The position numbers and the translations under genes were made by a program. A DNA stretch of 19,672 nt from a virus (lineage: Duplodnaviria; Heunggongvirae; Uroviricota; Caudoviricetes): the IMG/VR virus record IMGVR_UViG_2531839666_000030, positions 1-19,672 of that record. The stretch is one strand, 5' to 3'. Every line of letters begins with the position of its first letter. Position 1 is the first letter of the stretch. Of the stretch, positions 1,298-2,033 are shown one piece after another. The notes under the pieces are model-generated. The model was not told the origin of the DNA. It ran no database searches and worked only from the letters and a program-made list of their open reading frames with translations.

Positions 1298-1816
1298 TTA
1301 CGCTTTGGCTTCTTTATGGGTTAAATTGAAATGATGATCCTTGGTTTCATCTCCCTCGAAAATCTCTCTAACCTTTTGATCTGATAAATTATTAAGGCTC
1401 AATGCTGCCAGGCGTCGAATACCTGTTAAAGCGATCAACTCTTGATTCTCTTGATTGCAGAATTCCAGCAATTTTTCTACCCCTTTCCTTCTCAAGGTGT
1501 AAATAACTAATTCTTGCTCTTCTTGGCTCAAAGTGTCGATGAGTTCGAGCAACTCGCTATTGCCACCGTTCTTTTGAGGGGGCTGGTGTTTTATTTCTGC
1601 ACTACCTGTAATGATGGAAACAACATGTGCAGGTAAGTCGCTTAAACGGTAGGCAAATGCTCTCCCTCTGATACCAGGTGTAGTTACCGAACGTTTTTCC
1701 CATCCTTCATTTTTTGCTCGTTTATGAAGCCCAGCCAGAGATGAAGGAAGACCTCCAACCCCCAACAAGTCACTGGCAAGGATCCATTCTTGGTCAAGGA
1801 TCATATCAAACTCCAT
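1298..1816 (-). CDS. c: Mu c-type prophage repressor (N-terminal winged-helix DNA-binding domain shared with the transposase)
   Basis: Divergent from ner/A. N-terminal segment ...SDLLGVGGLPSSLAGLHKRAKNEGWEKR...GIRGRAFAYRLSDLP is clearly similar to the transposase N-terminus ...SFSDLPSSLAGLHKKAKREAWKTRLKPGVKGKVLECEIGALP. Mu repressor and MuA are known to share this domain. Gene is AT-rich. Confidence 0.85.
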   Translation of the reverse strand: MEFDMILDQEWILASDLLGVGGLPSSLAGLHKRAKNEGWEKRSVTTPGIRGRAFAYRLSDLPAHVVSIITGSAEIKHQPPQKNGGNSELLELIDTLSQEEQELVIYTLRRKGVEKLLEFCNQENQELIALTGIRRLAALSLNNLSDQKVREIFEGDETKDHHFNLTHKEAKA

Positions 1817-2033
1817 TTGATATTAACTTTTGTTTATATCTTTTATGTGGTTTATTTCAAAAATAACTCAATAAAAAACAAATAGATACAGAGCAAATTT
1901 AAAAATTTGAAATTAACCAGTTGATATTTACTAAGTTAATATCTAACATATCAAACATACACTAGTGAGTAACTCAATAGAGTAGCACACATGAGTAATA
2001 AAGTTTGCCATAGAAAGTACACAGGGGGCCATT
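1817..2033. promoter_or_regulatory. divergent early control region (candidate operators, Pc/Pe promoters, probable transposition enhancer)
   Basis: AT-rich 217 bp between c and ner. Inverted repeat ATATCAAA (1803-1810) / TTTGATAT (1816-1823) spans the c start codon. Second pair TTGATAT (1921-1927) / ATATCAAA (1948-1955). In Mu the operators between c and ner double as the enhancer (IAS). Confidence 0.6.

What the first reader, a model, noticed from the sequence alone, without database searches (positions are those of the whole stretch)
1800..2033. Operator-like palindromes, one spanning the repressor start codon
ATATCAAA / TTTGATAT inverted repeats occur at 1803-1823 (straddling the c start codon) and at 1921-1955. 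The arrangement suggests repressor autoregulation and a Mu-type operator/enhancer. Because repressor and transposase share their N-terminal domain, the same sites may serve as the transposition enhancer.
Basis: partly seen in the sequence, partly recalled or inferred. Interest (0 to 1): 0.4.

Follow-up and report, generated by a model that had tools for sequence, protein, structure and literature searches.

The report
Mu-like prophage repressor operator array
The two small palindromes are pieces of a conserved array of six or seven 11-bp repressor-binding sites in the lysogeny switch of a Mu-like prophage in E. coli, which is the ordinary phage-Mu type of operator and probably also its transposition enhancer.

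Summary
As palindromes they are within chance for this 27% GC spacer. What exceeds chance is the repeated word: TTGATAT occurs 4 times against 0.13 expected.

The real unit is an asymmetric 11-mer, T(T/A)GAWATWAAC. Exact matches to TTGAWATWWAC lie at 1817, 1850, 1907 and 1921, with one-mismatch site e at 1935 and weak copies at 1799 and 1832. They form two triplet clusters that are inverted copies of each other, separated by a 46-bp AT-rich spacer.

The same layout, including a fixed 14-bp spacing in the right cluster, recurs in 10 relatives whose repressors are 37-68% identical. The sites are 92% conserved against about 54% for the DNA between them.

The right cluster covers a conserved early promoter (-35 is the first six bases of site d). 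The left cluster abuts the repressor's ribosome-binding site.

The repressor and transposase N-termini are homologous to each other and to the Mu repressor and MuA I-alpha domains. In about 220 heteroimmune E. coli prophages, c, the operators, ner and the first 54 codons of A are replaced together, as in Mu versus D108.

Verdict: an uncharacterised immunity type of a known system. The operator role is well supported. The enhancer role is plausible but untested.

The parts
1081..2421 (.). Immunity module: c, the operators, ner and the first 54 codons of A. It is replaced as one block in heteroimmune relatives.
   Evidence: About 220 of 233 E. coli genomes carrying this phage family match the window at 995-1080 and from 2422 (some from 2434-2437) onward, but not in between. 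Thirteen genomes carry the whole module.
1298..1804 (-). Repressor gene c (168 aa), with a Mu-type winged-helix N-terminal domain.
   Evidence: Pfam PF02316. PHROG 7148, transcriptional repressor. Family profile hits PDB 1tns and 1g4d. PGAP start in identical prophages. Homologues align from this start.
1799..1809 (-). Weak site a0, TTGATATGATC (9 of 11 positions).
   Evidence: PWM score 8.7. Conserved in the E. coli, Shigella and Salmonella relatives but not in the distant ones. It also carries coding and RBS constraints.
1811..1814 (-). Shine-Dalgarno GGAG of c, 6 nt upstream of the ATG, in the spacer of palindrome 1.
   Evidence: Read directly from the sequence. Conserved as CTCC/CCCC in relatives.
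1817..1827 (+). Operator site a, TTGATATTAAC.
   Evidence: Exact 11-mer. Present at the same position in all 10 related loci.
1832..1842 (-). Weak site a', AAGATATAAAC.
   Evidence: PWM score 9.6. Better copies at this position in relatives: TAGATATTTAC and TTGATATTTCC.
1850..1860 (-). Operator site b, TTGAAATAAAC. Its first six bases (1860-1855) are the -35 of one candidate repressor promoter.
   Evidence: The start-to-start distance from a to b is 33-34 bp in the nine loci where it was measured.
1833..1860 (-). Candidate repressor promoter Pc: -35 TTGAAA at 1860-1855, 16-nt spacer, -10 TATAAA at 1838-1833. Tentative.
   Evidence: 10 of 12 consensus matches. Positionally conserved only in the E. 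coli and Shigella relatives, not in Salmonella.
1861..1906 (.). 46-bp spacer between the two clusters, 83% A+T, lying about the centre of the nested dyad (about 1882).
   Evidence: Length conserved at 46-47 bp (35-36 bp in the two distant relatives) while the sequence is only 53% conserved. No IHF consensus match here; the same scan found Mu's IHF site as a control.
1907..1917 (+). Operator site c, TTGAAATTAAC.
   Evidence: Inverted copy of site b (14 nt, 93% complementary).
1921..1931 (+). Operator site d, TTGATATTTAC. Its first six bases are the -35 of the early promoter Pe.
   Evidence: The same relation between site d and the -35 holds in all 10 loci.
1935..1945 (-). Operator site e, TAGATATTAAC. 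It begins TAG in every locus and overlaps the Pe -10 by 2 nt.
   Evidence: Inverted copy of site a (14 nt, 93%). The c, d and e starts are 14 bp apart in every locus.
1944..1949 (+). Pe -10 hexamer TAACAT, 17 nt after the -35 TTGATA at 1921-1926.
   Evidence: TAAYAT or TAAATT sits at the same offset in all relatives.
1948..1955 (-). It is part of a 10-nt exact direct repeat, CATATCAAAC, with 1802-1811.
   Evidence: Only 42% conserved in relatives and PWM score below 8. At best an extra weak site specific to this lineage.
1965..1990 (.). Probable Ner operator: imperfect inverted repeat GTGAGTAACTC-AATA-GAGTAGCACAC, with a further copy ATGAGTAAT at 1991-1999, starting about 10 nt after the predicted Pe start.
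   Evidence: The GTG(A/T)GTAAC motif recurs in all relatives and is 74% conserved. It resembles the CCGTGAGCTAC inverted repeat at the same position in D108. The window's Ner is 56% identical to D108 Ner.
2034..2279 (+). ner-like gene (81 aa).
   Evidence: Pfam HTH_35. 53-56% identity to Mu and D108 Ner.
2260..2421 (+). First 54 codons of transposase A, an I-alpha-like winged helix homologous to the N-terminus of c.
   Evidence: Lies inside the immunity module.
1223..1233 (-). Outlying exact 11-mer TTGATATAAAC between attL site L3 and the c stop codon.
   Evidence: Reached in 13 of 2000 local shuffles. Present only in the window's own lineage.

Best explanation
The interval 1799-1945 is the operator region of a Mu-like (Sakai Sp18-type) transposable prophage inserted in kefC.

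Proposed mechanism:
1. The 168-aa c repressor uses a Mu-type winged-helix domain to recognise an asymmetric 11-bp site, consensus T(T/A)GAWATWAAC.
2. Sites a, a' and b form a left cluster and sites c, d and e form a right cluster. The clusters are inverted copies of each other around about 1882, separated by a 46-bp AT-rich spacer.
3. Occupancy of the right cluster blocks RNA polymerase at the early promoter Pe (-35 is site d; the -10 abuts site e). This silences ner, A and B.
4. Occupancy of the left cluster and weak site a0, which flank the c ribosome-binding site and start codon and overlap one candidate Pc, would limit c expression (autoregulation).
5. After derepression, the transposase's N-terminal 54 residues are expected to bind the same clusters. 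That would make them the transposition enhancer, 0.82-0.95 kb from the left end, as in Mu.
6. The separate GTGAGTAAC-type repeat downstream of Pe is the likely Ner operator.

Shown here: the sites, their architecture and conservation, the protein homologies and the module boundary. Inferred: who binds what, the promoter starts, autoregulation and enhancer activity.

My confidence is about 0.85 for the operator role and about 0.55 for the enhancer role.
For: Sites:
- Five exact matches to TTGAWATWWAC lie in the window: four in the c-ner spacer and one at 1223. One-mismatch site e (1935) completes the right cluster; there are no other exact matches in 19.7 kb or in a full 39.3-kb prophage copy.
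- Local shuffles give 0.0075 expected against 4 observed.

Architecture:
- The same layout is found in 10 related loci from E. coli, Shigella, Salmonella, Yersinia and metagenomes, with repressors 37-68% identical.
- The a-to-b distance is 33-34 bp, and c, d and e are spaced 14/14 bp. Site e always begins TAG.
- Over 35 sites, G3 and T7 are invariant and A4, A10 and C11 nearly so.
- The motif core changes with repressor divergence: TTGATTTAAAC in L009/L012 and TTGAAAGAAAC in Yersinia.

Footprint: sites are 92% conserved against 53-55% for the spacer and other non-coding positions.

Promoter: -35 TTGAWW, 17 nt, then TAAYAT sits at the same offset in every locus.

Nested inverted repeats a/e and b/c are the best in the region, each 14 nt and 93% complementary.

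Proteins:
- PF02316 is present in both c and A.
- c and A are 42% identical over 55 aa, and the LPSSLAGLHK(R/K)AK segment is nearly identical.
- The family profile hits PDB 1tns and 1g4d.

Module: c, the operators, ner and A codons 1-54 are swapped together in about 220 genomes. Mu and D108 differ over the equivalent block, up to A codon ~64.

Literature: the Mu enhancer is two clusters of MuA sites overlapping O1-O3, about 1 kb from the left end (PMC3145075).
Against: - No binding data exist for this phage.
- The repressor promoter is not located. The best candidate (1860-1833) is not positionally conserved in the Salmonella relatives.
- No third operator cluster lies to the right of Pe, unlike Mu's O3.
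- There is no IHF consensus in the window's inter-cluster spacer, although the same scan finds Mu's site.
- Whole-domain identity between c and A is not higher within a phage than between phages, except for Mu. Co-evolution of the two domains is therefore only hinted at by the short HTH segment.
- In the majority lineage of this phage family, the repressor has an unrelated DNA-binding domain although A keeps PF02316. Shared operator and enhancer recognition is thus not obligatory in this family.
Confidence: 0.75

Rival explanations
1. Operator only. The clusters are repressor operators controlling Pe and c, but they are not a transposition enhancer. The transposase N-terminal domain would bind elsewhere or be dispensable.
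For: In about 220 related prophages the repressor's DNA-binding domain is unrelated to A's N-terminus, so the coupling is not universal. There is no IHF consensus between the clusters. There is no within-phage excess of c/A domain identity.
Against: A codons 1-54 travel with the operators in every module swap seen, exactly as in Mu versus D108. This is hard to explain if the domain does not read module-specific DNA. The HTH segments of c and A are nearly identical. The position, about 0.9 kb from the left end, and the two-cluster layout match the Mu enhancer (PMC3145075).
Confidence: 0.3
2. The 8-bp inverted repeats ATATCAAA/TTTGATAT are symmetric half-sites bound by a repressor dimer, as in lambda-type operators.
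For: A perfect 8/5/8 palindrome lies at 1803-1823. It extends to 15 nt at 80% complementarity and is largely conserved in the closer relatives.
Against: Sites c and d are direct repeats 14 bp apart. The second palindrome's right arm is not conserved. Such palindromes occur by chance in 10-24% of local shuffles. The left arm of palindrome 1 is also constrained by the start codon and RBS spacing.
Confidence: 0.07
3. The repeats are not repressor sites. They would instead be Ner operators, IHF sites (TATCAA core), or simply reiterated -35-like TTGAWA hexamers in AT-rich promoter DNA.
For: TTGAWA resembles TTGACA, and two sites do coincide with -35 hexamers. One exact IHF consensus, TATCAACTGGTTA, lies at 1914-1926. 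Ner is also encoded in the same module.
Against: Positions 7-11 (TWAAC) are as conserved as the TTGA part, which neither a -35 hexamer nor the IHF consensus explains. The IHF match is not conserved in relatives. A distinct motif resembling the D108 Ner-position inverted repeat sits downstream of Pe, leaving the 11-mers for c and A. Six to seven sites in two clusters is the Mu repressor/MuA pattern.
Confidence: 0.08
4. RNA-level control. In the c mRNA, palindrome 1 folds into a hairpin that holds the Shine-Dalgarno in its loop and part of the AUG in its stem, lowering translation. This is not exclusive of the operator model.
For: The predicted 9-bp hairpin is the minimum-free-energy structure of the 56-nt leader and start region (-11.3 kcal/mol).
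Against: The z-score is only -1.7, and 16 of 200 shuffles fold as well. The stem is AU-rich. Relatives show mismatches rather than compensatory changes (RM9088). No Rfam family matches. Whether the transcript includes the 5' arm depends on the unknown Pc.
Confidence: 0.1

Closest known systems
Phage Mu operator/enhancer region (O1-O3, also called IAS or E element)
   Same: - It lies between a leftward c gene and the rightward ner-A-B operon, about 0.8-1.0 kb from the left end.
- It has multiple asymmetric sites of about 11-12 bp, in two clusters separated by a spacer.
- One cluster overlaps Pe.
- The repressor and the transposase N-terminus share a winged-helix domain (PMC3145075).
   Different: - The site sequence is unrelated: T(T/A)GAWATWAAC here, against CTTTT-type sites visible in Mu at about 1005-1030 (the Mu consensus is from my memory).
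- There is no third cluster to the right of Pe.
- There is no IHF consensus in the spacer.
- The clusters are clean inverted triplets with 14-bp spacing.
- The repressor is 168 aa, with only the N-terminal domain detectably related to Mu's.
Phage D108 control region (heteroimmune relative of Mu)
   Same: - The immunity module has the same extent. Mu and D108 diverge from within c to A codon ~64. The window and its heteroimmune relatives diverge from 1081 to A codon 55.
- The Pe layout is the same, with a TTGATT-type -35 inside repressor-site DNA.
- A GTGAG(C)TAC-type inverted repeat follows just after Pe.
- Ner is 56% identical.
   Different: - Operator words differ (AAATCA/TGATTT-rich in D108).
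- D108's Ner-position inverted repeat is a perfect 11-bp repeat with an 8-bp spacer. Here it is imperfect with a 4-bp spacer.
- Assignment of that D108 repeat to Ner binding is from my memory, not from a paper I could open.
Sakai prophage Sp18 and other STEC Mu-like prophages
   Same: Same phage family. The left end, A from codon 55 onward, B and the late genes are 92-99% identical in about 233 complete E. coli genomes. Sp18 is described as an apparently intact Mu-like prophage (PMC2669165).
   Different: Most family members carry another immunity module whose repressor has a different, CI-like DNA-binding domain. I found no published operator analysis for either immunity type.
Lambda-type palindromic operators (cI/Cro)
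   Same: Multiple operators overlap divergent lytic and lysogenic control elements, and autoregulation is expected.
   Different: There is no fixed dyad-symmetric 17-bp unit here. The sites are asymmetric and used in direct and inverted orientation. The repressor fold is a Mu-type winged helix, not lambda cI.

Membership tests
Mu-type operator/enhancer (O/E, IAS) | Lies between the divergent repressor gene c and the ner-A-B early operon, roughly 1 kb from the left phage end. | tested here: met
   c is at 1298-1804 (-), ner at 2034-2279 (+), A from 2260 and B at 4415-5347. The left end is at about 993, so the sites lie 825-953 bp from it.
Mu-type operator/enhancer (O/E, IAS) | The repressor has the Mu winged-helix DNA-binding domain, and that domain is homologous to the transposase N-terminus (I-alpha). 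| tested here: met
   PF02316 in both proteins. BLASTP 42% over 55 aa, E 3e-12. The profile hits 1tns at 7e-6 and 1g4d at 5e-5.
Mu-type operator/enhancer (O/E, IAS) | Several asymmetric sites grouped in two clusters separated by a spacer. | tested here: met
   Sites a, a' and b, then a 46-bp spacer, then sites c, d and e. Conserved in 10 loci.
Mu-type operator/enhancer (O/E, IAS) | An operator cluster overlaps the early promoter Pe. | tested here: met
   The -35 TTGATA is the first six bases of site d, and the -10 TAACAT overlaps site e by 2 nt. The offset is conserved in all loci. This is a consensus-level prediction only; no transcript start data are available.
Mu-type operator/enhancer (O/E, IAS) | An IHF binding site lies between the two clusters. 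| tested here: inconclusive
   No WATCAANNNNTTR match in 1861-1906. Only one-mismatch candidates at non-conserved offsets in relatives. The same scan recovers Mu's site with 0 mismatches. The spacer is 83% A+T, so weak or non-consensus bending is not excluded.
Mu-type operator/enhancer (O/E, IAS) | A third, weaker operator (O3) overlaps the repressor promoter on the ner side of Pe. This layout is from my memory of the Mu literature. | tested here: not met
   No PWM hit of 8 or more between 1946 and 2033 in any locus. Pc was not located. Autoregulation, if any, would use the left cluster.
Mu-type operator/enhancer (O/E, IAS) | The transposase N-terminal domain is inherited with the operators in heteroimmune relatives. 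| tested here: met
   Homology to about 220 heteroimmune prophages resumes at 2422-2437, which is A codons 55-60. The Mu/D108 control resumes at A codon ~64.
Mu-type operator/enhancer (O/E, IAS) | Repressor and transposase bind the sites, and the element stimulates transposition in cis. | not testable with these tools
   Needs footprinting or EMSA and mini-prophage transposition assays.
Dyad-symmetric dimer operator (lambda cI/Cro type) | Each operator is a fixed-length palindrome whose two half-sites are both conserved. | tested here: not met
   Sites occur as direct repeats (c, d) and inverted repeats with variable gaps. The right arm of palindrome 2 is 42% conserved.
Ner operator (Mu/D108 type) | An inverted or direct repeat immediately downstream of the Pe start, next to a ner homologue. 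| tested here: inconclusive
   The GTGAGTAACTC-4-GAGTAGCACAC repeat at 1965-1990 is 74% conserved and resembles the D108 CCGTGAGCTAC repeat at the same place. Ner is 53-56% identical. Binding is untested.

The most novel reading that the evidence does not exclude
The 11-mer may work as more than a plain operator.

- Its TTGAWA head doubles as the -35 hexamer of Pe, and possibly of Pc.
- It shares the core TTGATA with the transposase end-binding sites (TTTGATACYG, three at each end).
- An isolated perfect copy sits at 1223, about 60 bp inside attL site L3.

The repressor, and the transposase I-alpha domain, might therefore also engage the left end directly. This would bridge the end and the operator region into a locked repressed loop, or conversely nucleate the end-enhancer synapse without IHF. 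That would be a wiring different from Mu's.
Probability: 0.1. Interest if true: 0.45.

Novelty: new member of a known kind. Interest (0 to 1): 0.25.

Why it matters
It gives a concrete, testable operator map for a rare immunity type (13 of 5426 complete E. coli genomes) of the Sp18-like transposable prophages. These are common in Shiga-toxin-producing E. coli and insert into genes (kefC here; ypdA, torZ and nrfA flanks elsewhere).

The map comprises the site consensus, seven positions and the Pe promoter.

The comparative series shows one fixed architecture with a drifting site core across E. coli, Salmonella, Yersinia and metagenomic relatives. This is a tidy natural data set for how a winged-helix repressor and its transposase paralogue keep reading the same DNA.

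It does not reveal a new kind of system.

Tried and rejected
1. IHF site between the clusters. The consensus scan found nothing in the window's spacer. The single exact match, at 1914-1926, is a by-product of the operator word and is not conserved.
2. RNA hairpin at the c ribosome-binding site. It is weak (z -1.7) with no covariation.
3. Known RNA families. There were no meaningful matches in 950-2350.
4. Locating Pc. Two candidates emerged. One has its -35 at 1860-1855 and -10 at 1838-1833. The other is a weak face-to-face promoter sharing the Pe -10 region, seen in L002 and L011. Neither is conserved across all relatives, so this is left open.
5. Whole-domain c-versus-A identity matrix as a test of co-evolution. 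There is no diagonal excess except for Mu. Only the short LP-x-x-x-x-G segment co-varies (SLAG, T(I/V)QG, TPQG, (S/V)AG), which is anecdotal.
6. att-end sites as immunity-specific sites. Rejected, because TTTGATACYG is unchanged in heteroimmune FORC_069.
7. The genome-contig scan added only one locus, from Yersinia pekkanenii.
8. The primary papers on the Mu and D108 control regions (PMC339817, PMC336651, PMC4486318) are not held. Details of Mu O3/Pc and of D108 Ner binding therefore rest on my memory.
9. The 'phages' collection holds no relative of the immunity module. It only matches the 81-nt left end inside two Stx phages.
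Full report
**Context**

The window begins in E. coli kefC, which is interrupted at about 992/993 by the left end of a Mu-like prophage (TGTAACCAGG...). The gene order is:
- c repressor, 1298-1804 on the minus strand
- a 229-bp spacer
- a ner homologue, 2034-2279
- transposase A, from 2260
- B, 4415-5347

This follows. Identical or near-identical copies sit in 13 complete E. coli genomes at different chromosomal sites. There, PGAP starts c at the ATG equivalent to 1802-1804 and A at the equivalent of 2260. A full copy in O157:H7 F8492 is 39.3 kb long. The family is that of Sakai prophage Sp18, described as an apparently intact Mu-like prophage (PMC2669165).

**Checking the observation**

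Palindrome 1 is exact: ATATCAAA at 1803-1810, CTCCA, then TTTGATAT at 1816-1823. Palindrome 2 has 7-bp arms (1921-1927 and 1948-1954) separated by 20 nt.

The start codon is touched under either reading. The better-supported start is 1804. It has a GGAG 6 nt upstream, inside the palindrome's spacer. Homologues align from this Met, and L011 has no upstream in-frame ATG.

Against dinucleotide shuffles of the 27% GC spacer itself, such palindromes are not unusual. An 8-bp inverted repeat with a loop of 10 nt or less appears in 10% of shuffles. 7-bp inverted repeats with loops up to 30 nt average 1.2 per shuffle, against 4 observed.

Reuse of one word is what stands out. TTGATAT occurs 4 times against 0.13 expected, reached in 1 of 2000 shuffles.

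**What the repeated unit really is**

The pattern TTGAWATWWAC has exact copies at 1817 (+), 1850 (-), 1907 (+), 1921 (+) and 1223 (-). A one-mismatch copy lies at 1935 (-). There is no other exact copy in the 19.7-kb window or in the whole 39.3-kb prophage. Local shuffles give 0.0075 expected against 4 observed.

A PWM adds two weak copies. One is at 1832-1842 (-). The other is at 1799-1809 (-) and is the left arm of palindrome 1, overlapping the ATG.

The sites form a left cluster (a, a', b) and a right cluster (c, d, e). The clusters are inverted copies of each other. The a/e and b/c pairs are the two best inverted repeats in the region, each 14 nt and 93% complementary, nested about position ~1882. 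A 46-bp spacer of 83% A+T separates them.

**Comparative test**

I fetched relatives whose repressors are 37-68% identical:
- E. coli RM9088
- Shigella sonnei
- three Salmonella types
- two metagenomic contigs
- Yersinia pekkanenii

Every locus has the same architecture:
- Site a lies just upstream of the c Shine-Dalgarno.
- Site b lies 33-34 bp further on.
- Sites c, d and e have 14/14-bp start spacing.
- Site e always begins TAG.

Over 35 strong sites from seven non-redundant loci, G3 and T7 are invariant and A4, A10 and C11 nearly so.

In the aligned closer relatives, the five strong sites are 92% identical to the window.

In the distant relatives the architecture is kept while the core drifts. 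It becomes TTGATTTAAAC in L009/L012 and TTGAAAG(A/C)AAC in Yersinia. This is the expected signature of repressor-operator co-evolution.

**Promoters**

A sigma-70-like promoter has its -35 TTGATA at 1921-1926, which is the head of site d. A 17-nt spacer follows, then the -10 TAACAT at 1944-1949, which overlaps site e by 2 nt. The same relation holds in all ten loci, with TTGAWW, 17 nt, then TAAYAT or TAAATT. This is the early promoter Pe, and the right cluster would occlude it.

The repressor promoter is unresolved. The best window candidate has its -35 TTGAAA at 1860-1855 in site b, and its -10 TATAAA at 1838-1833 in site a'. It is positionally conserved only in the E. coli and Shigella relatives. 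Autoregulation is therefore inferred only from the position of sites a0, a, a' and b around the c ribosome-binding site.

**Which protein reads which motif**

A second motif family lies just downstream of the predicted Pe start: GTGAGTAACTC-AATA-GAGTAGCACAC at 1965-1990, plus ATGAGTAAT at 1991-1999. It recurs in all relatives.

D108 has the perfect inverted repeat CCGTGAGCTAC-8-GTAGCTCACGG at the equivalent place. From memory, that is the D108 Ner site. The window's Ner is 56% identical to D108 Ner and 53% to Mu Ner. This leaves the 11-mers for c and for A.

**Repressor and transposase**

- Both c and A carry PF02316.
- Their N-termini are 42% identical over 55 residues, E 3e-12.
- The helix-turn-helix stretch is nearly the same: LPSSLAGLHKRAKNEGW in c against LPSSLAGLHKKAKREAW in A.
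- A profile of the c family hits MuA I-alpha (1tns, 7e-6) and the Mu repressor DNA-binding domain (1g4d, 5e-5).

**Module boundary**

This is the strongest indirect evidence for the enhancer idea. Of 233 E. coli genomes carrying this phage family, only 13 have the window's immunity region. In the rest, homology covers 995-1080 and resumes at 2422, or at 2434-2437 in some. That is A codon 55-60, the end of the c-like domain.

I verified the classical precedent directly. Mu and D108 are homologous up to about 360 bp and again from Mu 1519, which is A codon ~64.

Reviews state three things about the Mu enhancer. [quoted passage not shown] It overlaps O1-O3 about 1 kb from the left end. It is contacted by a region of MuA domain I separate from the one that binds the ends (PMC3145075). 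Here the clusters lie 825-953 bp from the left end.

**Differences from Mu**

- There is no third cluster on the ner side of Pe.
- There is no IHF consensus in the spacer, although the same scan finds Mu's site.
- Whole-domain identity between c and A is not higher within a phage than between phages.
- In the majority immunity type (FORC_069), the repressor keeps the C-terminal half but has an unrelated CI-like N-terminal domain, while A keeps PF02316. Shared recognition is therefore not a rule in this family.

**Rivals**

- A literal palindromic dimer operator is contradicted by the asymmetric conservation and by the non-conserved arm.
- IHF sites or bare -35 reiteration does not explain positions 7-11.
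- An RNA hairpin over the c ribosome-binding site is predicted but weak (-11.3 kcal/mol, z -1.7, no covariation). No Rfam family matches.

**Verdict**

The finding is real. It is a new immunity specificity of the well-known Mu/D108 type of operator and probable enhancer. My confidence is about 0.85 for the operator function and about 0.55 for the enhancer function. Novelty: new member of a known kind. Interest is low to moderate.

Noticed in passing
window 2002-2017: The element AGTTTGCCATAGAAAG lies 15-30 nt upstream of the ner start. It is 86% conserved in the closer relatives. It is still recognisable in the 37%-identity relatives: GGTTGCCATAAAGAG, GTTTGCCATAAAGAG, and GGTTGGCATAAAAC in Yersinia. 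Its function is unknown. It might be part of the Ner operator, a leader element or a promoter piece.
   Followed up: partly
window 1965-1999: Probable Ner operator: GTGAGTAACTC-AATA-GAGTAGCACAC plus ATGAGTAAT. It resembles the D108 inverted repeat CCGTGAGCTAC at the same position relative to Pe.
   Followed up: partly
window 1223-1233 (-): An isolated perfect operator-type 11-mer, TTGATATAAAC, lies between the third left-end transposase site and the c stop codon. It is found only in this lineage and is reached in 13 of 2000 local shuffles. It may be an auxiliary repressor site near attL, or chance.
   Followed up: partly
window 1010-1019, 1105-1114, 1157-1166; L015 (F8492) right end: Three TTTGATACYG repeats lie at the left end, with three inverted copies at the right end of the full prophage. 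These are the likely L1-L3 and R1-R3 transposase sites. They share the core TTGATA with the operator word but are unchanged in heteroimmune prophages.
   Followed up: partly
L013 (E. coli FORC_069) 5244-5774: In the common immunity type of this phage family (about 220 genomes), the repressor shares the C-terminal half with the window's c. Its N-terminal DNA-binding domain is different and CI-like (phrog_3037, phrog_4, phrog_8). The transposase there still has the Mu I-alpha-type N-terminus. This is a domain swap that uncouples the repressor and transposase DNA-binding folds.
   Followed up: partly
window 1-992: The prophage interrupts kefC, the glutathione-gated K+ efflux gene, at about codon 331. 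Other copies of the same phage sit in or next to ypdA, torZ, nrfA, hyfF, yahO and others, consistent with near-random Mu-type transposition.
   Followed up: no
window 1802-1811 and 1947-1956: There is an exact 10-nt direct repeat, CATATCAAAC. One copy is at the c start codon and the other at the Pe -10/+1. The second copy is absent from relatives other than the 97%-identical STEC299 lineage.
   Followed up: partly
window 2260-2279: The A start codon overlaps the 3' end of ner by 20 nt, which suggests translational coupling of ner and A.
   Followed up: no
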